The notes under the pieces are model-generated. The model was not told where the DNA came from and ran no database searches. It was given only the letters and a program-made list of their open reading frames with translations. From assembly GCA_035510735.1 (NCBI GenBank), contig DATKGN010000004.1, forward strand, positions 7,436 through 71,435: a DNA stretch of 64,000 nucleotides, in the 5' to 3' direction. Positions 30,840 to 42,035 of this stretch are shown here, one piece after another. Position 1 is the first letter of the stretch; each line of letters begins with the position of its first letter. Origin of the DNA: Patescibacteria group bacterium. GTDB taxonomy: Bacteria; Patescibacteriota; Microgenomatia; UBA10105; UBA927. The position numbers and the translations under genes were made by a program.

Positions 30840-32254
30840 GGTGTCGGTTTTCCAAAAATTTCTTTTTCAAGCTTTTCCCGGTTTACCTGTTTTTGGCTTT
30901 TTGCGATAATCTCGAGAGCCGGCACGATAGAGCCATTGAGCGTGATCTGCACGCGGTCAAAGATATATCGGACTCTCGGGTCCTCGATCTCGACGAAGTA
31001 GACGCCGTTTGCCAGGGGCGTTGACGCAGCAAACTGGCCAAGCCGGTTTGTTTTTAGCGCCCGGAGAGGGACTCCCTCTTTATCTTTTACTGTGACAAGT
31101 ACTCCGGGAAGGAATATGTTGTCACCGTCTTTAATAATCCCCGTGACGATATTCGGAAACGATGTGAGTCTGGGGAGGCCGACCCTCACCGCGCTTTCTG
31201 GGGTTATAATTTTTACCGTCGGCTGTCTTGTTACATTTGGAGAAGCCACATGTGTTCCCGATTGGCTTTGCACAACTGGCGCCGGTTTGGGCACTATGGG
31301 TGGTGGTGTAGTCGCGAGCGGATTGGCTGCCGCCTGACGCCGAAGCGCGGTCAGCTCCCGCTCCATGGTTTCGCGTTCTCCAAGCAACTCTGTTAACTGT
31401 TTTTGGAGTTCTAATACGCGCGCCTCGGTCATGGATGAGCTTGCAAGATCTTTTTTAAGCAATACAACCTGCTGTTCCAGCGCTTCTTCTTTTTGTTTGG
31501 TTTGTTCGATAGCTTCTGGAGTTGGCTTTGGCGTTGCAGGGCGGACAATCGGAGGAGGAGAAAAATCAATGTGTTTACCGGTTATCGATGGAATCGGATA
31601 GTTGGTGGTTGTAACGTTTGCATTCATCATTGTTGGTTTGGGAGTCGAAAACGTAAACAGGCCGGCGAGCCACCCCCACGCGGATTGTTTTGGATGGACC
31701 GTTACAATAGTCGGTTTCTGTGGTTGTGTCACGGGTCCCGGAGACGGTTGCGGAATTGTTTGCGTGTGGGCACCGGGAAACACGCTTTGTAAAATATCTG
31801 CTATCGGACGCGCTCCCTGTGTCGCGGTAGATGCGGCGACGCTTGAGGGGCGCTGCTGTGGAGATGGTTGTGGTTTCGCTGGTTGTATATGTTGAGCCCG
31901 CAGCACAGGTGGTGCGGGGGGTGCTGCCTGTTTGGCTGCCAATTGAGCAACGGGGGGAGCAGGCGTAACCCCTCGCGCCCATACGAATTGTGTGGGACTG
32001 TAGACGCTTTTAATAAACGACAACACCCAGATATCCATCGGACGTTCCTCGACGGGGACAAATGCGAACCCGACGCCGCCGATAGCAAAAACGGTAGTCA
32101 GGGGCCAGGTAAAAAAGAAAGGAAGCGGCAGTTTAAATGATATATATGCCAATATAGCGCCCCCGGCGAGATATCCGAACTGTTTAATCGTCATGTCGCC
32201 GATAAGGCGGAATTGAAATGTTGTGACGTTTTGAGGGACAGGATGCTGTTCCAT
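30836..32254 (-). CDS. PrgI/VirB3-like T4SS membrane protein fused to a Pro/Ala-rich low-complexity linker, a coiled coil and a C-terminal beta-sandwich (carboxypeptidase-regulatory/PEGA-like) domain
   Basis: The N-terminus is FQFRLIGDMTIKQFGYLAGGAILAYISF, with two TM helices and VPVEERPMDIWV, a PrgI-like pattern. Residues about 100-230 are P/A/Q-rich. The C-terminus is GVYFVEIEDPRVRYIFDRVQI. Confidence 0.45.
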   Translation of the reverse strand: MEQHPVPQNVTTFQFRLIGDMTIKQFGYLAGGAILAYISFKLPLPFFFTWPLTTVFAIGGVGFAFVPVEERPMDIWVLSFIKSVYSPTQFVWARGVTPAPPVAQLAAKQAAPPAPPVLRAQHIQPAKPQPSPQQRPSSVAASTATQGARPIADILQSVFPGAHTQTIPQPSPGPVTQPQKPTIVTVHPKQSAWGWLAGLFTFSTPKPTMMNANVTTTNYPIPSITGKHIDFSPPPIVRPATPKPTPEAIEQTKQKEEALEQQVVLLKKDLASSSMTEARVLELQKQLTELLGERETMERELTALRRQAAANPLATTPPPIVPKPAPVVQSQSGTHVASPNVTRQPTVKIITPESAVRVGLPRLTSFPNIVTGIIKDGDNIFLPGVLVTVKDKEGVPLRALKTNRLGQFAASTPLANGVYFVEIEDPRVRYIFDRVQITLNGSIVPALEIIAKSQKQVNREKLEKEIFGKPTP

Positions 32255-32395
32255 CGTATAATTATTGTACGGGCGTTTTTATCGCTGCGCAATAGCACAA
32301 AGCGCATCAGGACCGTGAAAACTGATATTTTGACATTTCACGGTTTTCACGAAAAAACAACCGATATTTCACGCGCGCTGTGATAAGATACAGGT
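32255..32395 (+). promoter_or_regulatory. Divergent promoter/operator region between the T4SS operon and the virD4-like gene, with repeated TTTCACG motifs
   Basis: CCGTGAAA at about 32313-32320 is inverted relative to TTTCACGG at about 32336-32343 (8-bp arms, 15-bp spacer). Two further direct copies TTTTCACG (about 32345) and ATTTCACG (about 32367) follow. Confidence 0.4.
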
Positions 32396-34585
32396 ATGGA
32401 TTCTCCGTTCGTATTATTGGAAATAAGGAATTCCAGGGATTCTGAAGAAACCCCCGCAGCAATGGAACAAATATTTGCTGCATTGGGCTCGGCGGGCGGT
32501 CACGGGGGATTATTAACAAGAATTTTTGGCCCTCGTCATGCGTCAAAATATCTTAGCTTTGAGATCGTTTCCGTTAACTCGAGAATCCATTTTTTTGTCG
32601 GCCTCCCAACATACATGCAAGCGTATGTGGAAAGCCAGCTTACTGCACACTACCCGAAGCTGCTCCTCACCGCCGCTCCCGATTACGCGCCGCATTTTTT
32701 CTCTCTTCCTCATGCGGCGGCACAGCTTGTCCTCACGAACTCCTATTATTATCCGCTTAAAACGTATAAAGACGCCAAAGACCTTGACGCGATGGCAAGT
32801 CTTCTCGGGCAGCTGGCGAAATTACCGGTCGGTGAAGCGGTTGCTATACAATTTCGCGCGGAACCGGCAGGGACGGGTTGGCAACAGGCAGCTTCAGCGG
32901 TTATCGCGCGCGGGGTGCCGGATGTGACATCGATAAACGGCCGCATGAAAGCCCATCCGCACGCACGACTCATAGAGACGAAAATATCGGAAGTCGGATT
33001 CACGACAGCTATCCGGATTGTTGCGGTTGGTGCTCAGGAGGCCCGCGCAAAAGAGCTCCTTAATTCCGTTGCCGGAACGTTTGGCGTGTTTACGCTCGGA
33101 GAGGGGAATGCATTGGCTATCGCCGAACCCGCATTTTGGCAAAAGAAGAAGCTGGAGCAGGGATTTGTTGAGCGAAGCGGGCGCGTGGCCCCACGGCATC
33201 AGGTCCTCAATGCGAGCGAACTTGCCTCGCTTTGGCACCCACCAGGGCTCACGCTTTCGATGATTAAAAATATTTCCTGGGGTGCACAGCTTACCGGAGA
33301 GGCACCGGAAAATCTTCCGGTAGCCACAGATGATGAAGAAGCCAAAAAGCGGATTAATTTCTTTGCCCGGACGGAACATAAAAATCGCACCGTTACCTTC
33401 GGGGTGCAGAAAGACGATCGGCGAAAGCACGTGTATATTGTCGGGAAAACCGGAACCGGCAAATCAACCATGATCGCCAATATGGCCATTAACGATATGA
33501 AAAACGGCGAAGGAGTTGCTGTTGTCGATCCGCATGGAGACCTTTGTGATATCCTTCTTGATTATGTGCCGTCCAATAGAATTAATGATGTTGCATACCT
33601 TGATCCGTCGGACATCGAATATCCGTTTCATCTTAACCCTCTTGAAGTAAAAAATACCGCATATCGCGAGCTTGTGTCCTCCGGCATCGTCTCTATTTTT
33701 TACAAACTGTATCACCTGAGCTGGGGGCCAAGATTGGAATACATTCTTAGGAATACAATTCTGACTCTTCTTAACGTGCCCGACAGTACGCTCCTGCAGG
33801 TTCCCGAGCTTCTAACGAATGAAAATTACCGGCTGAAAGTGGTGGGTTCGATGCAGGACCGGGTGCTCAAGAATTTCTGGATCAATGAATTTGCCAAAAT
33901 GAGCCCGCAGATGCGAAGTGAAGCGGTGTCGCCGATCCTTAACAAGGTTGGTCAGTTTCTTTCCTCCCAGACCATCCGGAATATTGTCGGAAGCCCCACG
34001 TCGACGGTCGATTTAGAGGATATGATGAACGAGGGGAAAATCGTCATTGTGAATTTGTCCCAAGGGAAGCTTGGTGAGGATAGTAGCGCGCTTTTGGGCG
34101 CCATGATTATCACGAAAATGCAGCTCGCCGCGATGAACCGGGTATATGTTGCCGAAAGCGAGCGGCGCGACTTCTACCTCTACGTCGATGAGTTCCAGAA
34201 TTTTGCGACGACCTCGTTTATTAAGATTCTTTCCGAAGCCCGTAAATACCGGCTCGATCTCACACTTGCCAACCAATATATCGGTCAAATTGATGAGGAT
34301 GTGCAAAAGGCGATATTCGGGAACGCCGGATCCATCGTTTCGTTCAGTGTCGGGGCGACCGATGCGCGGATCCTCGCTAAGGAATTCGGACTTAAGTACA
34401 AAGAGGAAGAATTGGTGGGCCTTGGTAATTATGAAGTAATCTGTAAACTTTCGATTGATAATCAGACAAGTAGCCCGTTCTCCGCCCACACGCTGCCACT
34501 TCCCAAGAGTAAAAATCAGAGTAGGGAAAAAGTGATACGCTCGTCTCGAGAGAGATACACCAAAAAGATAAATTCAAAATCCTAA
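32396..34585 (+). CDS. VirD4/TraG/TrwB-like type IV coupling-protein-family ATPase (DUF87/HerA-FtsK superfamily). It has a soluble N-terminal domain and no TM helices.
   Basis: Walker A is HVYIVGKTGTGKSTMIANMAI. VVDPHGDL is present. Walker B is DFYLYVDEFQNFATTSF. The C-terminal region is LTLANQYIGQIDEDVQKAIFGNAGSIVSF. The first roughly 330 aa are unrecognised and lack TM segments. Confidence 0.65.
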   Translation: MDSPFVLLEIRNSRDSEETPAAMEQIFAALGSAGGHGGLLTRIFGPRHASKYLSFEIVSVNSRIHFFVGLPTYMQAYVESQLTAHYPKLLLTAAPDYAPHFFSLPHAAAQLVLTNSYYYPLKTYKDAKDLDAMASLLGQLAKLPVGEAVAIQFRAEPAGTGWQQAASAVIARGVPDVTSINGRMKAHPHARLIETKISEVGFTTAIRIVAVGAQEARAKELLNSVAGTFGVFTLGEGNALAIAEPAFWQKKKLEQGFVERSGRVAPRHQVLNASELASLWHPPGLTLSMIKNISWGAQLTGEAPENLPVATDDEEAKKRINFFARTEHKNRTVTFGVQKDDRRKHVYIVGKTGTGKSTMIANMAINDMKNGEGVAVVDPHGDLCDILLDYVPSNRINDVAYLDPSDIEYPFHLNPLEVKNTAYRELVSSGIVSIFYKLYHLSWGPRLEYILRNTILTLLNVPDSTLLQVPELLTNENYRLKVVGSMQDRVLKNFWINEFAKMSPQMRSEAVSPILNKVGQFLSSQTIRNIVGSPTSTVDLEDMMNEGKIVIVNLSQGKLGEDSSALLGAMIITKMQLAAMNRVYVAESERRDFYLYVDEFQNFATTSFIKILSEARKYRLDLTLANQYIGQIDEDVQKAIFGNAGSIVSFSVGATDARILAKEFGLKYKEEELVGLGNYEVICKLSIDNQTSSPFSAHTLPLPKSKNQSREKVIRSSRERYTKKINSKS

Positions 34586-34609: not shown

Positions 34610-34987
34610 ATGGACAAAATTCAAAGCACAAAACAGTATGATCTCGAAGATCGGACGTATGAATTTGCCAAACGCTGTCGTGATTTTGTGGTAAAACTTG
34701 CCAAGACGCAACCAAACGTGGAATACGGCGGGCAACTTATTCGATCATCCGGATCTCAAGCAGCCAATTATATAGAAGCAAACGATGCTATAAGTGCAAA
34801 AGACTTTCTCCATAGGATTAAAATTTGCAGAAAAGAAAGCAAAGAGAGTAGATTATGGTTGCGATTATGCGAAGTTGGAGCAAAAAGCGAATCTCAGATA
34901 GCTCAAAAAGAGCTCATACAGGAAGCGTTTGAACTTACGCGTATTTTTGGTTCAATTGTTGAAAAACGCAAGCAGAATCACGTTTGA
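34610..34987 (+). CDS. Four-helix-bundle protein (the family historically called the 23S rRNA intervening-sequence protein; TIGR02436-like)
   Basis: MDKIQSTKQYDLEDRTYEFAKRCRDFVVKLAKTQPNVEYGGQLIRSSGSQAANYIEANDAISAKDFLHRIKICRKESKESRLWLRL is the characteristic family pattern. The gene is flanked by imperfect inverted repeats (see findings). Confidence 0.8.
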   Translation: MDKIQSTKQYDLEDRTYEFAKRCRDFVVKLAKTQPNVEYGGQLIRSSGSQAANYIEANDAISAKDFLHRIKICRKESKESRLWLRLCEVGAKSESQIAQKELIQEAFELTRIFGSIVEKRKQNHV

Positions 34988-35054
34988 ATATTTTGAATTT
35001 TGCATTTAGAGTTTTGAATTTATTTTGAATTTTGGATTTGGGATTTGGAATTTT

Positions 35055-35615
35055 ATGAAAATAGCCCTTTTAGGCGGAAGTTTTAATCCACCGCACATAG
35101 GCCATCTGTTTATAGCACGGCAGGTACTGGATTTTACCGACACGGACGAAGTGTGGTTTTTGCCCAACTACGGCCAGAGCCCGCCGAAGCCGGTGGCAAC
35201 AGCAGAGGAGCGGCTGGCGATGACAAAGGTATTGAATTTGCCCAAGACCCGCATTTCCATGATAGAAATTGACAATAAACTCGACGGTGAAACCGTGCAT
35301 ATCCTCCCGTTTTTACCGAAGGAGCACACGTTTTCATTCATTATCGGTTCCGATCAGTTGCCGACGCTTCACCTATGGCTTGATTGGGAAAAACTCATTA
35401 CAACAATACCATTCTTAGTGTTTCCCCGATACGGCTACCCGAATGAGCCGCTCTACGGCGGGATGAAGGTCATAAACCACGAGCTATTAATCGGCAGCAA
35501 TATTTCCTCGACAAAGATTAGGGACCGGGTGGGCGAAGGCTTGCCTATCGACCAGTTTGTGCCGAAGGCAGTCGCCGAATATATCGACAGCCATAGTCTT
35601 TATAAGACCACTTAA
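35055..35615 (+). CDS. nadD: Nicotinate-nucleotide adenylyltransferase NadD
   Basis: MKIALLGGSFNPPHIGHLFIARQVLDFTDTDEVWFLPN (HxGH motif) and a C-terminal ISSTKIRDRV motif. The ORF starts at 35025. The start was placed at ATG 35055. Confidence 0.9.
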   Translation: MKIALLGGSFNPPHIGHLFIARQVLDFTDTDEVWFLPNYGQSPPKPVATAEERLAMTKVLNLPKTRISMIEIDNKLDGETVHILPFLPKEHTFSFIIGSDQLPTLHLWLDWEKLITTIPFLVFPRYGYPNEPLYGGMKVINHELLIGSNISSTKIRDRVGEGLPIDQFVPKAVAEYIDSHSLYKTT

Positions 35616-35617
35616 CA

Positions 35618-35650
35618 GGTCTTGACAAAAGACCTATTAGGCGCTATCAT
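35618..35650 (+). promoter_or_regulatory. Sigma-70-like promoter with a palindromic operator upstream of phd/relE
   Basis: TTGACA (35622-35627), a 17-nt spacer, and TATCAT (35645-35650) directly abut the ATG. The -35 lies inside the palindrome AGGTCTTGACAAAAGACCT (35618-35636). Confidence 0.5.
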
Positions 35651-35896
35651 ATGCTCATGACTACGATATCCATTTCACAGCTTAAAATAAATCCATCATC
35701 TGTTATCGCTCAGGCGGTAGATTATCCTGTGGTGGTAGAAAACCGCAATAAAGTGCAGGCGTATCTTGTGGGAAAAACATTGTTTGAAAAAATTATTGCA
35801 CTTCTTGAAGAGAAAGAGGATGTGGCCGCTGTGAAAAACACTGATTTTTCTAAAGGCAGGAATTTCGATGATGTAGCCCAAGAGCTGGGGTTATGA
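35651..35896 (+). CDS. Type II antitoxin, Phd/YefM family
   Basis: 81 aa. The N-terminus is MTTISISQLKINPSSVIAQAVDYPVVVENRNKVQAYLV (Phd/YefM fold pattern), with an acidic C-terminal tail. The stop overlaps the toxin start (ATGA). The translated start is more likely ATG 35657. Confidence 0.65.
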   Translation: MLMTTISISQLKINPSSVIAQAVDYPVVVENRNKVQAYLVGKTLFEKIIALLEEKEDVAAVKNTDFSKGRNFDDVAQELGL

Positions 35897-36156
35897 ATAT
35901 TCTGATATCGCCTCGAGCGGAGAAAGAGCTCAAAAAGCTTCATAAATTTGATCAAATTGCCGTTGTTCAAAAAATACGCTCTCTTCGACTCTCAACGCCG
36001 CATGGAGAAGAACGGCTAACCGGATATCCACATATATTTCGTGTTCGCGTAGGAAATTATCGGATTGTATACCGTAAAACACGAGACGACATATATATCA
36101 TTCTCATCCGTCACCGGAAAGACGTCTATAAAAAGCTTACGGACCTGTTGGGATAG
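35893..36156 (+). CDS. Type II toxin, RelE/ParE family
   Basis: 87 aa. HIFRVRVGNYRIVYRKTRDDIYIILIRHRKDVY is the typical RelE/ParE C-terminal pattern. Confidence 0.75.
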   Translation: MNILISPRAEKELKKLHKFDQIAVVQKIRSLRLSTPHGEERLTGYPHIFRVRVGNYRIVYRKTRDDIYIILIRHRKDVYKKLTDLLG

Positions 36157-36228
36157 TTTTGACAAAACATAGCCGATTAGGTTCAGGCGTTGACGGTTGG
36201 GCTAACGCACTTTAGACTGGAATAGTGG

Positions 36229-36360
36229 TGGACAAATTATCGATTAACAATAATATTTCCTCGACAAAGATCAGGGAACGGGTGGGCCGCGGCCTCCCGA
36301 TTGACCAGTTTGTGCCGCCTGCGGTTGCGAAGTATATTCAAGAACACAAGCTTTATACAT
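36229..36360 (+). pseudogene. Orphan 3' fragment of a second nadD allele (about 44 codons, ending TAA)
   Basis: It translates as VDKLSINNNISSTKIRERVGRGLPIDQFVPPAVAKYIQEHKLYT*. This is about 75-80% nucleotide identity to nadD 35497-35615 (IGSNISSTKIRDRVGEGLPIDQFVPKAVAEYIDSHSLYKTT*). There is no 5' portion. Confidence 0.75.
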
Positions 36361-36428
36361 AAGATCGCCTGCTTGCGTGTCCGACAACCGGCGGGATACA
36401 ATAAAATAAATAGTTAAATATATTTTAT

Positions 36429-39400
36429 ATGCCTGAAGATACCAACGAAAAGACGCCGATATTGCTTCTGAAGAAATTGTTAGAGGGGAAGCAGCCGCCC
36501 CCGGATCGTGGTGCAGACGGCCCGTTAACGGTTAAAGGCGTCCAAAGCCGCGATTTTGCCAGGCGTGAACAAAATGCCAAGGAATTGAAAAGCACCCAAG
36601 AGAGCAAAGGACCAAAACCTGAAACAGGAGTGAAGCCAAAAACGGAAGCAATTTCGGATAAATATAAGGAAGAGTTGGTCCGGAGCGGAACGCCGCTAAC
36701 GATAGAAAAAAAACTACAGATCATTGAGCATGAAGTGCCGGAAGCAAAAACGCTGGCCCTCAAACGACAATTTGAAGAGTTAAAGAACGAAATCCGCAAT
36801 AATCCTCAGGGTCCGGATTCACGGGGGAGAATACAATCTATCGTAAAAGGTATTCAAACCGACGCGGCTGTGGACAAAGACCTCAATGAGGTGGCACAGG
36901 AGATTACGCAATCCACCTACAACCACATTATGCGGAATAAAGCATATATGGTGGGCATCTCAATAGACGACCGCGCGGAAATGGGCGTGACATTTATAGA
37001 CGCCAAGTCTTCTCGTATTTATGAAGACGAGAATTATTTGCGCGATATTGGAGAAAACATACTCCGTCGGCCGTTAACAGCAGCAGATATTCAGGCTGAG
37101 GTTCAGGTTTCGGAGGATTTGGTAAAACATCTCAATGCCGGAGGTGATGAGGCGGATGTGGATTTGGTCGTTAAAACCATGCGGCCGGTTGAAAAATTGG
37201 ATGAAAAGACCGCCCGACAAAAGATTGCGGAAGGGCCCAGGTGGGTGAAAGATGCGGCAAGTAAAATTACCCGCGATTCGTACGCATTATCATTCCTCGG
37301 CGAGATGTCTGATGTGTACAAAATGAATCCTGATTTAGTTGATGATCCCACAAAGCTTAACCCCGCGCTATTGTTCACCAAAGGCGTACAGCTCCGTGTG
37401 GATAACGGTGAATTTTATACGTCGCAGGGCGAGTCTTCTGATGTCATGGCGCAAATGCAGGAAGGCACTTCAGTTCGCGATACGGTGGTCGATCAAGTCA
37501 AGCTGGCCATTGAGGGCAGGCCGATGTTTACCAGCGACCGCTGGGATGAACATTTATATCTCATGAGCGAGCCTAAGGCGTTTGCATTGGGAGCAGGAGT
37601 GGATTATGAATGGGATTCGGCGGCAGAACCCGTTCGTGCCGGCGCCCTGAAGGACCGTCTTGACGAATTTAATTCTTACGTTCACTCTCTGACCGGGGAT
37701 GTCGACGAGCAGGTTTATAAACTATACGGCGATTTACATCATGATTATCGCGCTGACTTGACGCTTGTTCCGAATCTTGTCGATAGGCTCGCAAAAAGGA
37801 TAGATGAAGTATCCAAGCTAAACGCGGAAAGACATAAAGCATTCAGCAACCTTTACTTCGAATACGTCGACCAAATGCCGGTATATCGGAACCCGGCTCT
37901 CGCTCTTCGTGAGACGCAGGACTATTACAATGAGTTGTCCCGCTTATATCCAAACACGTTCCAGGAATCGGTTGAGCGGAACCGTCAAAACATGATTTCA
38001 TTTTTAAACAGCCCGCATTTCCAGGCAGACTGGAAAGCGTTTTTTGACGATGATAAAAATTGGGGTTTCATCAATGAGGGCTACGACCCTGCGTATAAAA
38101 TTACCGTTAGAGCCGATCTTGATAAGCACCCTATGTATAAAGTCCTTAAAGATAAAAATGAATGGGCAAAATACCGTGGACAACTCGTTGACTCGTTCAC
38201 ACAAGGGGATTTATTGCAGCGCGGCGTCACAACGTTTAAGACTTCCGAAATAGAAAAAATGAGAGGCATCAATGCGTCTATCGGTGAGAAAGGGCAGATT
38301 ATATTACGGCGGGACAGAGGGGGGATCAATAATCGGGCATATTTGATTATGGATCGAAAAGGAGAATTTTCCCGTTTTGACAACGACGGAGATGAAGCGG
38401 TAGCGAGCGGACCAAATTTGAAACGGGCGGTGAATAAGGCGAAGCACGAAATGAAGAAATATAAAGAACATTATTTGCCAAAATTAGCGAAAGTATACGG
38501 TCCGAATGTTGATTTTGACACCATGGTAGATGCCGCGGTCGACGAAATGTATTCGCAGCAGATTATTGAAACGCGTCGCGCTGAGTGGATGGAATGGGGG
38601 GCGCCGATTTGGAAAGTTGGAGGGCAAAAAGATAACCCATTCATGTTTGCCGGCTTGGGCCCTGAAGCTAACGTGTTGACTGCCTGGCGCCCAATTGATG
38701 AGCTAATGGAACGCTGGGGGACGATAAGCGCTTCCGGCCGCCACGTGATTGAAGAGGCCGCTAAGAGCGATGTGATGCGTCTGAGTATTGATAAATATGT
38801 CGACCCCGCGTTGGACAAAATTGATCTGCGCACCGCGAAAGGAAAACAGGATTTCCGGCGACTTGTAAAAAATTATTTAGGAATTGTTGAGCCCGAGACC
38901 TCACCTAGATACGCGGCTATTGAACAGCAACGTCTTGTGTTTTTTGAAATTGATGAGCACGGGATTGACCTGAAGGAGCAATTACGAAATCCGACGTCAA
39001 TAGATAAATTGACCAAGAAAGACCTCCGGCGGCTGATGACGTTCACTCTGGCGAAACGCGCCGCAACAGACAGGGAGGCAACCGGCGCGTACCGGTATCG
39101 TTCGGCGTCCTGGAATGCAGACACGATGATTCAGGTTATGGACAAAAAGTACACTGGGCATAACGAAGTTTTATTACAGGAACGACTGTCGCGAAAAGTT
39201 GCTGATTTGTTTAACCCCGAAATTTCACATGATAGTATTGAGAATGCACAGTTTACTCTCACACACATTGTCCCAGAAGATCCGACAAGCGGAATGCTCC
39301 TTAAATTAGGAGAGTATTCGCCCATGCACGCGGTCGATGCGCTACAGTCGGAGTGTGATATTGAAATATTGGAATTTATTAACCGGGAGATTCCTGCAGC

Positions 39401-40490
39401 AAACCATGCGTATCATGATCCTGAAGAAGCAGGTCTCAACGCTATCGGTCCTGGCAGGCGAGATCTTTTTATGGAGCGTTTTATCATGCGTCAAGATATG
39501 ATAAATGCCGATTGTGCGGAAGCAGGAGAAATGCCCTGGAATTTTTCAAAACCAATCGCGGCTCACACCCCAAGACAAATAGCTATTGCAGCTGAAATAT
39601 GTCGGATTACCCAAACGGATATGAACGAATTTTTTGCGCTCGGCGGACGTATTTCAGAGCATGTTTTAGAACCTGAAACATTAGAGTCTCTCTCAAATCC
39701 CGCGATCGCGCAGTATTTTTTAGTCGTTCACGATCAGGATCCACGATATATAGAGTTAGATGACGGGGTCCCCGGGGATCCTGAATTTCAATATTCCCTC
39801 CAAATTGCTAAAGATGATTACGCAGGGAACAATGGAATCTATCGCAACCTAAACGATACAGTAAATGCGGCAGGTGGCGTGGTAAAGGATTTTAAACCAA
39901 TGGTTGAGGCGGGTGATGAAAAGACATTTACAGGGCATCGTGAAGCGTTTTATGCGATGACAGAAATGGTCGGCGGCTACAATACGAAAGCAGTCAATAA
40001 TCTGAAATGGACGGCAGCATGGTACGGGATGGTACGGATGGATTACGGGAAGGACATTGTGGGTATGAAGGGGGAACATCCATTTTTCCCCATGTCTGAT
40101 CACCAACGAATAGTGGGTATAGGCGGATTAGCCCTGCCTCTTGAGAAGGTGGATCTTGCATGGCATGCTGCGGACGTTGCAACAGGCGGAAAATTTCATA
40201 AATTATTTCCGCATTTAACTCATGTAACCATGAAACGATTGAACCTCATCGCCGCCGAGATTGGTTGGCCTAATTTTTTACAGGATTTTGGCAAAGCTAT
40301 TACGAAAAGGACTGGATGGAGGGGAGTAGAACGACTATTTCATCACAAATTTGAAATTCAGACCGTTTGGGTCCCGCGCGCAGTGGCATTGGCCGGTTTG
40401 GCCGTGTTATTATGGGGAACTCAAACTTGGAGTAATTTGAAAAAGGGATTTTCCGGGAACTCCTCACACGCACAACCGGAACACGGTTAA
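36429..40490 (+). CDS. Giant hypothetical protein (1353 aa) embedded in the T4SS cluster. It is mostly hydrophilic and helical, with one C-terminal TM helix.
   Basis: It is an uninterrupted 4.06-kb ORF. The N-terminus is charged and K/E-rich. There are no recognisable NTPase, relaxase (HUH) or peptidase motifs. The C-terminal TM helix is AVALAGLAVLLWGTQTW. It sits between the virD4-like and virB6-like genes. Confidence 0.6.
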   Translation: MPEDTNEKTPILLLKKLLEGKQPPPDRGADGPLTVKGVQSRDFARREQNAKELKSTQESKGPKPETGVKPKTEAISDKYKEELVRSGTPLTIEKKLQIIEHEVPEAKTLALKRQFEELKNEIRNNPQGPDSRGRIQSIVKGIQTDAAVDKDLNEVAQEITQSTYNHIMRNKAYMVGISIDDRAEMGVTFIDAKSSRIYEDENYLRDIGENILRRPLTAADIQAEVQVSEDLVKHLNAGGDEADVDLVVKTMRPVEKLDEKTARQKIAEGPRWVKDAASKITRDSYALSFLGEMSDVYKMNPDLVDDPTKLNPALLFTKGVQLRVDNGEFYTSQGESSDVMAQMQEGTSVRDTVVDQVKLAIEGRPMFTSDRWDEHLYLMSEPKAFALGAGVDYEWDSAAEPVRAGALKDRLDEFNSYVHSLTGDVDEQVYKLYGDLHHDYRADLTLVPNLVDRLAKRIDEVSKLNAERHKAFSNLYFEYVDQMPVYRNPALALRETQDYYNELSRLYPNTFQESVERNRQNMISFLNSPHFQADWKAFFDDDKNWGFINEGYDPAYKITVRADLDKHPMYKVLKDKNEWAKYRGQLVDSFTQGDLLQRGVTTFKTSEIEKMRGINASIGEKGQIILRRDRGGINNRAYLIMDRKGEFSRFDNDGDEAVASGPNLKRAVNKAKHEMKKYKEHYLPKLAKVYGPNVDFDTMVDAAVDEMYSQQIIETRRAEWMEWGAPIWKVGGQKDNPFMFAGLGPEANVLTAWRPIDELMERWGTISASGRHVIEEAAKSDVMRLSIDKYVDPALDKIDLRTAKGKQDFRRLVKNYLGIVEPETSPRYAAIEQQRLVFFEIDEHGIDLKEQLRNPTSIDKLTKKDLRRLMTFTLAKRAATDREATGAYRYRSASWNADTMIQVMDKKYTGHNEVLLQERLSRKVADLFNPEISHDSIENAQFTLTHIVPEDPTSGMLLKLGEYSPMHAVDALQSECDIEILEFINREIPAANHAYHDPEEAGLNAIGPGRRDLFMERFIMRQDMINADCAEAGEMPWNFSKPIAAHTPRQIAIAAEICRITQTDMNEFFALGGRISEHVLEPETLESLSNPAIAQYFLVVHDQDPRYIELDDGVPGDPEFQYSLQIAKDDYAGNNGIYRNLNDTVNAAGGVVKDFKPMVEAGDEKTFTGHREAFYAMTEMVGGYNTKAVNNLKWTAAWYGMVRMDYGKDIVGMKGEHPFFPMSDHQRIVGIGGLALPLEKVDLAWHAADVATGGKFHKLFPHLTHVTMKRLNLIAAEIGWPNFLQDFGKAITKRTGWRGVERLFHHKFEIQTVWVPRAVALAGLAVLLWGTQTWSNLKKGFSGNSSHAQPEHG

Positions 40491-40493
40491 CGA

Positions 40494-42035
40494 CTATTCT
40501 CCACCCCCACCATGCGAAGGAGGGCTTTTTTGGCCGGTTACGCGGTCCCATATCTGACTTGGCCAGAGAGACTTGATGTAATATGCCATTGATAGTGTTT
40601 GCAATGCTCCTCCTCCTGCCCCTCCCGTGTCGAACATTGGCATAACGGACTTTGCCTTGAGCGCTTCTTTGACCGAGCCTGCAACAGAGGGTATGGCAAA
40701 TAAGATGCCAAGCGAGATGAGTGCGCCGATTGCCGTTGTGTTACTTACAATACTCGTGTACGGCGGTACCCAAAGGTTTGTTGGTCCTCCTGAAATGCCG
40801 CCGTTTGAGAAATTAGCAAATACGGAGGAGAGCATAAACATAGCGCCTCCGATAGGGAAAACCGCGAGATTTGCTGCAAGATTTTTAATCCACGATGAGA
40901 ACGAATTAGATCCTGGGAGCGCCTCCATGAGTAATTGGAGTGGCGCCAATAGCAGCGAGATAATTATCTGGATATAAGAAGTAAGGAAGAATCCAAGCAA
41001 TCGAAGAAAGAGGAATAGTATAACGATGGCTAAAATTAAATGGACGAGCGGTAACCCGAGTCCGGCGAGACCTATCACGACTCCGGCTCCGCCTATCGGC
41101 GTGCCCGCGCCGGCAATGGCAGCTATTCCGCCGATAACTGCGCCTATAGAAGACACCATGAGGGCGGTACCGGAATTTACATTATAGCCCAAAAATTTAA
41201 GCGGGTTTATATCCACGTTGAAAAACTGTGCTCCAATGCCGCCCTGGCCGTAGAGCGCGTCATTTGTCGTAATATGATATATGCTTTGCACCTGCGCGCT
41301 CGGCGCCGGCAGATAATTTGGAATTGATTTAAAAATGGCAACGATAAAGAAAATAAGAAGATACATGATATCAATCATAAATCCGACGATTGCATAGGAA
41401 AATGTGATGAGGATAAGCGCGATGATGACACGGGGGATTGCATTTTGTGCCGTGACGACGGTTTTGGGATCAATTTTTTTCCTGAGCATGATCATAAACC
41501 CGAGAACGATCATGACAAGCGCCATAAGGAGGTAGGCGATATTCCGGAACGCTTTCCAGATGGGAAGAAGGGGTTCGAGGCCGCTGAATCCAATCCCTTG
41601 TGCATACGCCTGATCGGGGATAAATCCGAGAGAATGACCCATATCGGCTAAAAACAAACCGGAGTCGGCGGGTTTCGTTGTATACATGTCAGCAATAACG
41701 CCGCCAAGTTGCATTGCCGTGCTTCCGTTAAGGCACGTGGTAAAGTCTGTTTGTGTTTTTGCACCCGATATACAGACTGACTTGTCGATCATATCAGCGA
41801 TGTCATACGCGTTATTGGTGTTTTGGAAATGGACGGTTGATTCGGAATTAATCGAAGCCGTTCCATACACCGCGGCATTGGTATCTTGTGTAGTCGGGAA
41901 TTTCCAGGAATTAATGAGATTGGTGATAGCTGTAATCGGGTTTGCCGGGGCCGGTTGAGCAAAAACGACGCTTTTGGGTGCAAGAAATGCGAGCGAACAG
42001 AGAAGAATAAAAAACACGAGCAGACGTTTTAGCAT
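40494..42035 (-). CDS. VirB6/TrbL-like polytopic T4SS membrane protein with an N-terminal secreted domain
   Basis: It has a signal peptide (MLKRLLVFFILLCSLAFLAPKSVVFA) and an extracytoplasmic domain of about 150 aa. Six or more TM helices (LMALVMIVLGFMIMLRKK...IIALILITFSYAIVGFMIDIMYLLIFFIVAIF...) have interspersed Gly-rich loops. It lies immediately adjacent to the VirB2-like pilin array. Confidence 0.55.
   Translation of the reverse strand: MLKRLLVFFILLCSLAFLAPKSVVFAQPAPANPITAITNLINSWKFPTTQDTNAAVYGTASINSESTVHFQNTNNAYDIADMIDKSVCISGAKTQTDFTTCLNGSTAMQLGGVIADMYTTKPADSGLFLADMGHSLGFIPDQAYAQGIGFSGLEPLLPIWKAFRNIAYLLMALVMIVLGFMIMLRKKIDPKTVVTAQNAIPRVIIALILITFSYAIVGFMIDIMYLLIFFIVAIFKSIPNYLPAPSAQVQSIYHITTNDALYGQGGIGAQFFNVDINPLKFLGYNVNSGTALMVSSIGAVIGGIAAIAGAGTPIGGAGVVIGLAGLGLPLVHLILAIVILFLFLRLLGFFLTSYIQIIISLLLAPLQLLMEALPGSNSFSSWIKNLAANLAVFPIGGAMFMLSSVFANFSNGGISGGPTNLWVPPYTSIVSNTTAIGALISLGILFAIPSVAGSVKEALKAKSVMPMFDTGGAGGGALQTLSMAYYIKSLWPSQIWDRVTGQKSPPSHGGGGE

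What the first reader, a model, noticed from the sequence alone, without database searches (positions are those of the whole stretch)
35497..36360. Phd/RelE cassette inserted behind nadD with a duplicated, diverged nadD 3' end, imperfect direct repeats, and a leaderless palindromic-operator promoter
An intact nadD ends at 35615. About 600 bp downstream (36229-36360) lies an orphan copy of the last about 44 codons of nadD. It is about 75-80% identical at the nucleotide level. It still ends in TAA and has no 5' part. Between the two copies sits only a Phd/YefM-RelE/ParE pair.

The cassette is bracketed by imperfect direct repeats. One is TCTTGACAAAAGACCTATTAGG at 35619-35640. The other is TTTTGACAAAACATAGCCGATTAGG at 36158-36182.

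The first repeat doubles as a near-consensus sigma-70 promoter: TTGACA, a 17-nt spacer, then TATCAT. Its -10 directly abuts the annotated ATG, so the transcript is probably leaderless and starts at the second ATG (35657). Its -35 lies inside a perfect 5-bp-arm palindrome, AGGTC-TTGACAAAA-GACCT. This is the classic architecture for antitoxin autorepression.

A gene-3'-end duplication flanking foreign cargo is the signature of site-specific integration with an element-borne replacement 3' end. Usually that is seen at tRNA genes or other conserved 3' ends. Alternatively, a TA-bearing nadD allele was acquired by homologous recombination. No integrase is present. So this is either a degraded element or a different insertion mechanism.
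Basis: seen in the sequence. Interest (0 to 1): 0.6.

Follow-up and report, generated by a model that had tools for sequence, protein, structure and literature searches.

The report
Toxin-antitoxin cassette with nadD recombination scar
A small toxin-antitoxin gene pair sits behind the NAD-synthesis gene nadD in an uncultured Gottesmanbacteria (CPR) genome and is followed by a leftover copy of nadD's tail; this is a real but fairly ordinary recombination scar in a variable hotspot, not a recognisable integrase-driven mobile element.

Summary
An intact nadD (35055-35615) is followed by a Phd/YefM-RelE pair (35657-36156). Next comes an orphan copy of the last ~44 nadD codons (36225-36362), 75-79% identical to the intact 3' end (score 91 against a shuffle maximum of 33).

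The TTGACA-17-TATCAT promoter and its palindrome are real and conserved in every related cassette. The palindrome has 7-bp arms, AGGTCTT-GACAA-AAGACCT. Homologues support a leaderless start at ATG 35657.

Relatives show empty sites, with nadD stop, about 8 nt, the promoter motif and the giant gene. The orphan carries exactly that empty-type end, so it marks the ancestral junction. The same cassette sits behind nadD in at least five other Gottesmanbacteria lineages without an orphan, and no integrase is nearby.

Only one sister species shares the orphan. The duplication predates their split. A 692-bp core (35596-36287) is 94.7% identical against 77-82% in the flanks, so it was exchanged later (dS 0.1-0.3 against 1.1-2.4).

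Similar 3' remnants and promoter duplications flank other cassettes in this hotspot. The best reading is integrase-free recombination, possibly with one homologous and one illegitimate joint. That mechanism is inferred, not shown.

This is a new member of known kinds, of modest interest.

The parts
35055..35615 (+). Intact nadD (nicotinate-nucleotide adenylyltransferase), 186 aa. It ends LYKTT*, the cassette-type end.
   Evidence: PF01467 E = 1e-19. TIGR00482 scores 126 bits, above its cut-off. Homologues align from Met 35055.
35499..35604 (+). Copy A of the duplicated nadD 3' segment, inside the intact gene.
   Evidence: 106 nt, 75-79% identical to 36252-36357.
35604..35650 (+). TA promoter and operator. 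Half-site AAGACC at 35604-35609. Palindrome AGGTCTT-GACAA-AAGACCT at 35617-35635. The -35 TTGACA is at 35622-35627 and the -10 TATCAT at 35645-35650.
   Evidence: The GGTCTTGACAAA core is present in every related cassette except the L100 lineage, which has GGTCTTGACAGA. Binding by Phd is inferred.
35657..35896 (+). phd/yefM-family antitoxin, 79 aa from the second ATG. The mRNA is probably leaderless.
   Evidence: PF02604 scores above its gathering threshold. The start position is conserved in L090, L099, L100 and L103.
35893..36156 (+). relE/parE-family toxin, 87 aa. Its start overlaps the phd stop (ATGA).
   Evidence: PF05016 E = 7e-11. The nearest solved relatives are 2khe and M. jannaschii RelE3 (3bpq).
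36157..36224 (+). Unique spacer. The first 17-25 nt (DR2, TTTTGACAAAACATAGC...) are the left arm of a palindromic element that follows relE in related cassettes. It also holds a weak promoter-like site, TTGACG-17-TAGACT, at 36190-36218.
   Evidence: It shows no homology to nadD and has no meaningful Rfam match.
36225..36362 (+). Orphan nadD' (last ~44 codons, GTG to TAA). Nucleotide homology runs 36252-36357. It ends LYT*, the empty-site type.
36373..36402 (+). Conserved promoter-like motif of the giant gene: TTGCGT, 18 nt, TACAAT. Across lineages it reads CTTGCG-N17/18-GATACAATAAGATAA.
   Evidence: It lies at the same distance from the nadD stop in empty-site relatives. Its function is inferred from conservation. 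It fell below the threshold of the scan.
36429..40490 (+). 1353-aa protein of the T4SS-like or pilus cluster. It is the right-hand neighbour of the hotspot.
35596..36287 (.). Tract recently exchanged with the sister species (L090). It is 94.7% identical, against 77-82% in the flanks.
   Evidence: Fisher p = 2e-13; dS 0.10-0.30 against 1.1-2.4.

Best explanation
The locus is a chromosomal type II toxin-antitoxin cassette. It consists of a Phd/YefM-family antitoxin and a RelE-family mRNA-interferase toxin. It is transcribed from its own near-consensus promoter as a probably leaderless mRNA. It is presumably autorepressed through the palindrome that overlaps the -35 box.

The cassette lives in a variable hotspot between nadD and a giant gene of a conserved T4SS-like or pilus cluster in Candidatus Gottesmanbacteria.

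The orphan nadD' is the 3' end of an empty-site-type nadD allele, still attached to the native promoter of the giant gene. It was left behind when a TA-bearing nadD allele, whose last codons (KTT*) and operator belong to the cassette, was joined to it by integrase-free recombination.

The most likely route is one homologous joint in or upstream of nadD and one illegitimate joint at about nadD codon 141. This is homology-facilitated illegitimate recombination, as known from naturally transformable bacteria. The event predates the split between this species and its sister (L090). Later, a ~0.7-kb core carrying the TA pair was exchanged between the two species by ordinary homologous recombination.

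Shown here: gene identities, the duplication, empty sites, the junction types, the age order of events and the recent tract. Inferred: repressor binding, the leaderless start, toxin activity and the exact recombination mechanism.
For: **Identities.**

**Empty sites and the collinear promoter.**

**Junction types.** The orphan ends LYT* followed by CTTGCG...GATACAAT, as empty sites do. The intact gene ends LYKT., with AAGACC fused to the operator, as in the TA-bearing lineages L099 and L100.

**The cassette without an orphan.** It is found behind nadD in L099, L100, L103/L104, L105-L109 and L195.

**Age of the duplication.** Over the 105-nt segments, intact-intact identity is 79% and orphan-orphan 80%, while intact-orphan identity within a genome is 75% and 73%.

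**Recent tract.** It is 94.7% identical against 77-82% in the flanks (Fisher p = 2e-13). dS is 0.30 for phd and 0.10 for relE, against 1.1-2.4 for five host genes.

**Recurrent scars elsewhere in the hotspot.**
- L100 has a decayed relE' fragment (codons 55-80) 62 nt after relE.
- L105-L109 have a 13-codon relE' remnant plus the palindromic element, after a second cassette.
- L099 and L194 have duplicated giant-gene promoter sequence flanking cargo.

**No recombinase nearby.** None is annotated in the ~6-7 kb flanks of the collinear loci.

**Background.** Patescibacteria are reported to retain homologous-recombination genes and competence machinery (PMC12455944).
Against: The donor context of the 68-nt spacer was not found, so the illegitimate joint and any microhomology cannot be shown.

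The event is old and has been overprinted by later recombination and by gene conversion. In L090 the two nadD copies share a 43-nt block with only 3 differences. Donor and recipient parts therefore cannot be assigned.

A Campbell-type single crossover of a circular fragment gives the same final architecture.

The 3' half of the orphan has diverged less than neutral sites have (26% differences, against pS of about 0.6). Its dN/dS is 0.23 over 24 codons. A pure scar does not predict this unless gene conversion or regulatory constraint is invoked.
Confidence: 0.5

Rival explanations
1. Campbell-type integration. A circularised fragment carrying the nadD 3' end, the TA pair and the spacer entered an empty-site nadD by a single RecA-dependent crossover. 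This duplicated the homologous segment and is reversible by recombination between the repeats.
For: Direct repeats of the homologous segment flank the cargo. The 5' half of the orphan lies inside the recently exchanged tract. In L090 the two copies show a gene-conversion-like block, so the copies do recombine.
Against: The L100 relE' remnant has no cargo between the copies, which a circle does not explain easily. No excised or empty variant was found among contigs of the same strain. A model with independent integrations at different crossover points failed: the window orphan and the L090 intact copy are only 70% identical.
Confidence: 0.2
2. Site-specific integration into the nadD 3' end by a tyrosine or serine recombinase, with an element-borne replacement 3' end. 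The recombinase is now lost or acts in trans.
For: A gene 3'-end duplication flanks foreign cargo and relatives have empty sites. In L099 the cassette lies exactly between the last nadD codons and the native promoter, which looks like a precise insertion.
Against: No recombinase gene is annotated in the flanks. The repeats are 75-79% identical rather than sharing an identical core. Other lineages carry the cassette at the same junction without any repeat. DR1 and DR2 are the operator and a palindrome arm, and they lie inside the duplication. The recently moved tract is not bounded by the repeats.
Confidence: 0.1
3. The orphan is kept because it does something. It could be a small expressed NadD C-terminal peptide, or regulatory DNA upstream of the giant gene.
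For: The ORF and the stop position are retained in both species. dN/dS is 0.23 in the diverged half, and divergence is below the neutral expectation. A promoter-like site, TTGACG-17-TAGACT, ends 6 nt before the GTG.
Against: Only 24 informative codons are available. Gene conversion from the functional copy mimics constraint. The promoter match is weak (9 of 12) and about 3 such hits are expected by chance in the region. Leaderless translation normally needs AUG, not GUG (established knowledge). A 45-aa tail of a Rossmann-fold enzyme is unlikely to fold alone. The orphan is absent from all other lineages.
Confidence: 0.07
4. A purely local tandem duplication of the segment from the nadD 3' end through the TA pair, followed by deletion of the second TA copy.
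For: The direct repeat could come from unequal crossing-over.
Against: The orphan carries the empty-site-type end (LYT* plus the native promoter). A tandem duplicate would have the cassette-type end (KTT* plus the operator).
Confidence: 0.03

Closest known systems
Phd/YefM-RelE (RelBE, YefM-YoeB class) type II toxin-antitoxin operons
   Same: The antitoxin gene comes first and overlaps the toxin gene. Both proteins pass the Pfam thresholds (PF02604, PF05016). A palindrome overlaps the promoter, as in conditional-cooperativity autoregulation. The toxin aligns to RelE3 of M. jannaschii (3bpq).
   Different: The mRNA is probably leaderless. The operator extends into the last codons of the upstream housekeeping gene. 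No NCBIfam equivalog matches the toxin. Activity is untested.
Genomic islands integrated into 3' ends of conserved genes (tRNA/tmRNA islands, SCCmec at rlmH, ICESt3 at fda; from my own knowledge)
   Same: The target gene is kept intact, a displaced partial 3' copy lies on the far side of the cargo, and relatives have empty sites.
   Different: There is no integrase. The repeats have diverged and share no identical core. The cargo is only 0.5 kb. The same cargo occurs at the same site without repeats in other lineages.
Homology-facilitated illegitimate recombination during natural transformation (Acinetobacter baylyi, Streptococcus pneumoniae; from my own knowledge)
   Same: One joint is homologous and the other illegitimate. 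This leaves truncated resident sequence next to the incoming DNA and needs no element-encoded recombinase. The host group is reported to be competent (PMC12455944).
   Different: It has not been demonstrated here. The donor and any microhomology at the joint are unknown.
TA cassettes in chromosomal superintegrons (Vibrio; from my own knowledge)
   Same: Small TA and defence cassettes are stacked at one chromosomal spot, each with its own promoter.
   Different: No IntI gene was seen in the annotated flanks and no attC site was identified. The palindromic element after relE (TTTTGACAAAA...TTTTGTCAAAA) was not compared formally with attC.

Membership tests
Type II TA, Phd/YefM-RelE/ParE | Antitoxin with a Phd/YefM domain above the curated threshold | tested here: met
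   PF02604 scores 34.3 bits against a cut-off of 29.8. NCBIfam phd_fam is below its cut-off (16.2 against 20.8).
Type II TA, Phd/YefM-RelE/ParE | Toxin with a RelE/ParE fold domain above the curated threshold | tested here: met
   PF05016 scores 43.1 bits against a cut-off of 23. PDB relatives are 2khe and RelE3 3bpq.
Type II TA, Phd/YefM-RelE/ParE | Bicistronic operon, antitoxin first, with overlapping or adjacent genes | tested here: met
   ATGA overlap at 35893-35896.
Type II TA, Phd/YefM-RelE/ParE | Palindromic operator at the promoter, bound by antitoxin or the TA complex | tested here: inconclusive
   A 7-bp-arm palindrome overlaps the -35 box. It is conserved in all related cassettes. 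Binding itself cannot be tested here.
Type II TA, Phd/YefM-RelE/ParE | Toxicity that is neutralised by the antitoxin | not testable with these tools
   Needs expression experiments.
Integrase-mediated island at a gene 3' end | Element-encoded site-specific recombinase | tested here: not met
   The cargo is only phd and relE. The neighbours are PrgI-like, TraC-like, DUF87/TraG-like, IVP, pilins and the giant gene.
Integrase-mediated island at a gene 3' end | attL/attR direct repeats containing the target 3' end, with an identical core | tested here: inconclusive
   A 106-nt repeat is present but only 75-79% identical. The longest exact run is 20 nt, AATATTTCCTCGACAAAGAT.
Integrase-mediated island at a gene 3' end | The same element is bounded by the same repeats in other genomes | tested here: not met
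   L099, L100, L103, L105 and L195 carry the cassette without a nadD repeat.
Integrase-mediated island at a gene 3' end | Empty site in relatives | tested here: met
   L095, L010, L012, L014, L024 and others.
Homology-facilitated illegitimate recombination scar | Truncated resident sequence abutting incoming DNA, with only one homologous flank | tested here: inconclusive
   The architecture fits, and it recurs in L100, L105, L099 and L194. The donor is unknown.
Homology-facilitated illegitimate recombination scar | Microhomology at the illegitimate joint | not testable with these tools
   The spacer has no match outside the window and L090 lineages.

The most novel reading that the evidence does not exclude
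The nadD-to-giant-gene hotspot of Gottesmanbacteria gains and swaps TA and defence cassettes by a systematic, integrase-free route. Transformed DNA is anchored by homology in the conserved upstream gene and joined illegitimately downstream. Each event leaves a 3' remnant or a promoter duplicate. The remnants then serve as handles for later exchange between species, as seen in the 692-bp tract.
Probability: 0.2. Interest if true: 0.5.

Novelty: new member of a known kind. Interest (0 to 1): 0.3.

Why it matters
The locus gives a concrete, sequence-resolved example of how streamlined CPR bacteria gain and exchange small selfish or defence cassettes without element-encoded recombinases. These bacteria are often said to be poor in TA and defence systems. 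It also shows cross-species recombination of a sub-kilobase tract between genomes whose synonymous sites are saturated. It does not reveal a new kind of system.

Tried and rejected
- **Does the spacer 36157-36251 continue the nadD homology?** No. Its score of 23 was reached by 410 of 1000 shuffles.
- **Rfam on 35400-36500.** The only hit was a chance sub-threshold viral match.
- **Spacer against the relE-downstream regions of L105 and L099.** The alignment was unconvincing.
- **Spacer in all fetched loci and in viral contigs.** It occurs only in the window and L090 lineages. relE has no close relative in viral contigs.
- **Independent insertion of one circle into both species at different crossover points.** Rejected: the window orphan and the L090 intact copy are only 70% identical.
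- **An empty or excised variant of the same strain, sought through exact nadD and exact 1353-aa look-ups.** None was found.
- **More orphan-bearing lineages among about 60 Gottesmanbacteria-type loci.** None was found beyond L090.
- **Phylogenetic assignment of which nadD 3' copy is foreign.** It could not be resolved: both copies are closer to each other than to any other lineage, whose identity is at most about 71-75%.
Full report
**What is in the sequence**

Reading 34800-36700 and listing ORFs gives the following layout.
- nadD runs 35055-35615. Homologues align from the ATG at 35055, not from the upstream TTG.
- A 41-nt gap follows.
- phd runs 35651/35657-35896.
- relE runs 35893-36156, with an ATGA overlap on the phd stop.
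- A 68-nt spacer follows.
- A 45-codon ORF runs 36225-36362 and ends in TAA.
- 66 nt further on, a 1353-aa gene runs 36429-40490.

Pfam assigns CTP_transf_like to nadD, PhdYeFM_antitox to phd and ParE_toxin to relE, all above their gathering scores. NCBIfam TIGR00482 (nadD equivalog) scores 126 bits against a cut-off of 112. The 45-aa orphan matches positions 157-194 of the same model (E = 7e-10). The toxin's nearest solved relatives are 2khe and RelE3 of M. jannaschii.

**The duplication is real**

A local alignment pairs 35499-35604 with 36252-36357 at 79% identity. The score is 91, against a mean of 18 and a maximum of 33 in 500 shuffles. The repeat finder reports the same pair at 75% ungapped. 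The spacer 36157-36251 shows no significant similarity to upstream nadD.

The arrangement is present in at least four independent assemblies of the same strain and at least two of a sister species. It is therefore not an assembly artefact.

**Promoter and operator**

TTGACA (35622-35627), a 17-nt spacer and TATCAT (35645-35650) match 11 of 12 consensus positions.

A third AAGACC half-site lies in the last nadD codons (35604-35609).

The core GGTCTTGACAAA is present in every related cassette fetched, including cassettes next to an ISL3 transposase or a PaaX-like gene. The one exception is the L100 lineage, which reads GGTCTTGACAGA. The motif is therefore part of the cassette.

In L099, L100, L103 and L090 the antitoxin starts at the Met that corresponds to 35657, 6-8 nt after the -10 hexamer and with no Shine-Dalgarno sequence. 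This supports a leaderless mRNA that starts at or near 35657. That start is inferred, not measured.

**Organism and neighbourhood**

The nearest genomes are Candidatus Gottesmanbacteria (Patescibacteria/CPR) MAGs. The locus lies in a conserved T4SS-like or pilus cluster. The cluster contains VirB4-like, TraC-like and PrgI-like genes, a DUF87/TraG-like ATPase, then nadD, the giant protein, a 513-aa membrane protein and pilins. I did not run Pfam on the window's own flanking ORFs. The Pfam annotation of the collinear loci L090 and L095 lists no recombinase gene within about 6-7 kb on either side.

**Empty sites**

In about 40 related loci, nadD (184 aa, ending LY[RKQ]*) is followed after 7-9 nt by a conserved motif, CTTGCG-N17/18-GATACAATAAGATAA, and then the giant gene. 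L095, whose nadD is 80% identical, has a 72-nt intergenic gap.

The orphan in the window ends LYT* and is followed by exactly this motif (TTGCGT 36373-36378, TACAAT 36397-36402). The orphan therefore sits in the ancestral position.

**The cassette is widespread at this spot and usually has no orphan**

RelE homologues of 69-83% identity lie directly behind nadD in L099, L100, L103/L104 and L195. In L105-L109 they lie at the same locus, with a PaaX-like gene or an ISL3 transposase in between.

In L099 and L100 nadD ends LYKT[-/S]* with AAGACC (AAAACC in L099) fused to the operator. This is the same left junction as in the window. In L099 the relE stop is followed at once by the giant-gene promoter motif.

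Only the window and L090 (nadD 85% identical) carry nadD'.

**Order of events**

Over the 105-nt 3' segments the identities are as follows.

| Comparison | Identity |
|---|---|
| Window intact vs L090 intact | 79% |
| Window orphan vs L090 orphan | 80% |
| Window intact vs window orphan | 75% |
| L090 intact vs L090 orphan | 73% |
| Cross comparisons | 70-73% |
| Either copy vs any other lineage | at most about 71-75% |

The duplication therefore predates the split between the window species and L090.

The region 35596-36287 covers the last five nadD codons, the operator, phd, relE, the spacer and the 5' half of the orphan. It is 94.7% identical between the two species. The nadD 3' end before it is 77% identical, the orphan's 3' half 75% and the promoter region 82% (Fisher p = 2e-13).

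Synonymous divergence tells the same story.

| Segment | dS |
|---|---|
| phd | 0.30 |
| relE | 0.10 |
| Orphan 5' half | 0.23 |
| traG-like, nadD, PrgI-like, TraC-like, membrane protein | 1.1-2.4 |

The TA core was therefore exchanged between the species long after they diverged. Its boundaries do not coincide with the repeat ends, which points to ordinary homologous recombination.

**DR1 and DR2**

The two sequences are more alike than chance for this pair of windows: gapped score 25, reached by 1 of 5000 shuffles. The 9-mer TTGACAAAA occurs 4 times in the 64-kb window against 1.26 expected, and 6 of 100 shuffles reach 4.

DR1 is the cassette's operator and -35 box. DR2 is the left arm of a ~34-nt palindromic element, TTTTGACAAAA-N-TTTTGTCAAAA. 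That element follows the relE stop in L105-L109, where L105 has three copies, and in L195, where it encloses a GC-rich hairpin and looks like a terminator. In the window the element is truncated after its left arm. Neither repeat bounds the nadD duplication.

**Recurrent scars in the hotspot**

- L100 has a decayed relE' (codons 55-80) 62 nt after its relE.
- L105-L109 have a 13-codon relE' tail (KIVVYKKLIDLLE*) plus the palindromic element. It lies between a second cassette (93 aa and 91 aa) and the giant-gene promoter.
- L099 has the giant-gene promoter motif on both sides of a 2.3-kb island that carries AbiEii and an MNT/HEPN pair.
- L194 has a partial CGGCTTGCG motif upstream of the cassette and a full one downstream.

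In every case a resident 3' piece or promoter survives just downstream of newly arrived DNA.

**Mechanism (inferred)**

The product contains both junction types. The intact nadD has the cassette-type end, and the orphan has the empty-type end with the native promoter. A TA-bearing allele and an empty allele must therefore have recombined.

Replacing resident DNA with a donor fragment does this if the fragment is joined homologously on the left and illegitimately at about nadD codon 141 on the right. No recombinase is needed. The same process explains the L100 and L105 remnants. Patescibacteria are reported to retain recombination genes and competence machinery (PMC12455944).

A Campbell-type single crossover of a circular fragment gives the same architecture and cannot be excluded. 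Site-specific integration is the least supported reading, for three reasons: no recombinase is present, the repeats lack an identical core, and the same cassette occurs elsewhere without repeats.

**Loose end**

The 3' half of the orphan has diverged less than neutral expectation (26% differences, against pS of about 0.6). Its dN/dS is 0.23 and the stop position is kept.

L090's two copies share a 43-nt block with only 3 differences, including the lineage-specific residues K and KE. Gene conversion from the functional copy is therefore the simplest explanation.

A weak promoter-like site ends 6 nt before the orphan's GTG. However, about three such hits are expected by chance in the region, and leaderless GUG starts are poor (established knowledge).

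**Verdict**

The TA, promoter and leaderless readings are supported. The integration-element reading is not. The locus is a new member of known kinds: a chromosomal Phd-RelE cassette in a variable hotspot, with a gene-remnant recombination scar. The modest added interest lies in the recurrent scars and in the cross-species exchange of a sub-kilobase tract in a CPR lineage.

Noticed in passing
window 34610-34987: The 125-aa '23S rRNA intervening sequence protein' (four-helix-bundle) gene between the traG-like gene and nadD is itself a presence/absence and position polymorphism. It is absent in many relatives and lies upstream of nadD in some (L011, L014, L119, L127). It lies downstream of nadD in others (L016, L116, L122-L124). 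In L090 it is degenerate, at 33% identity and split into two ORFs. Both flanks of nadD are therefore variable.
   Followed up: partly
window 36429-40490: The 1353-aa protein evolves very fast. It is 45% identical in amino acids to its L090 orthologue, while neighbouring genes are 82-96% identical. Nucleotide identity falls to about 30-55% over 37550-40550. It has no Pfam domain.
   Followed up: no
window 32100-32400: The divergent intergenic region between the PrgI-like gene and the traG-like gene is 93-95% identical to L090. This is the only other stretch in 13 kb that approaches the TA tract, and it is presumably a constrained bidirectional promoter.
   Followed up: no
L099 5265-7675: A 2.3-kb island lies between the TA cassette and the giant gene. 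It holds 93-aa and 91-aa genes, an 86-aa gene with AbiEii, and an NTP_transf_2/HepT (MNT/HEPN) pair. Two copies of the giant-gene promoter motif flank it.
   Followed up: partly
L105 2201-2234, 3614-3650, 4327-4360 (also L106-L109, L195 ~770-840): A ~34-nt palindromic element, TTTTGACAAAA...TTTTGTCAAAA, recurs at cassette boundaries: after the nadD stop, after relE and before the giant-gene promoter. In L195 it encloses a GC-rich hairpin. It may be a terminator or a recombination hotspot.
   Followed up: partly
L106, L107, L109 (ISL3 transposase) and L105, L108 (PaaX-like gene): Strains of one lineage carry alternative genes immediately upstream of the same TA cassette, either an ISL3-family transposase or a minus-strand PaaX_M-domain gene.
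   Followed up: no
L004 / L110 (JGI Ga0182022_1179827) 1964-2204: In a strain variant of the window organism, phd matches only in three overlapping pieces and the traG-like gene is also fragmented. This could be a frameshifted or partly duplicated antitoxin, or a poor assembly.
   Followed up: no
L193 1-2730: A relE homologue of 79% identity sits in a tight array of small cassettes (an 87-aa gene, an 85-aa gene with AbiEii, phd-relE, and DUF433 with a partner). The cassette also occurs in multi-TA arrays.
   Followed up: no
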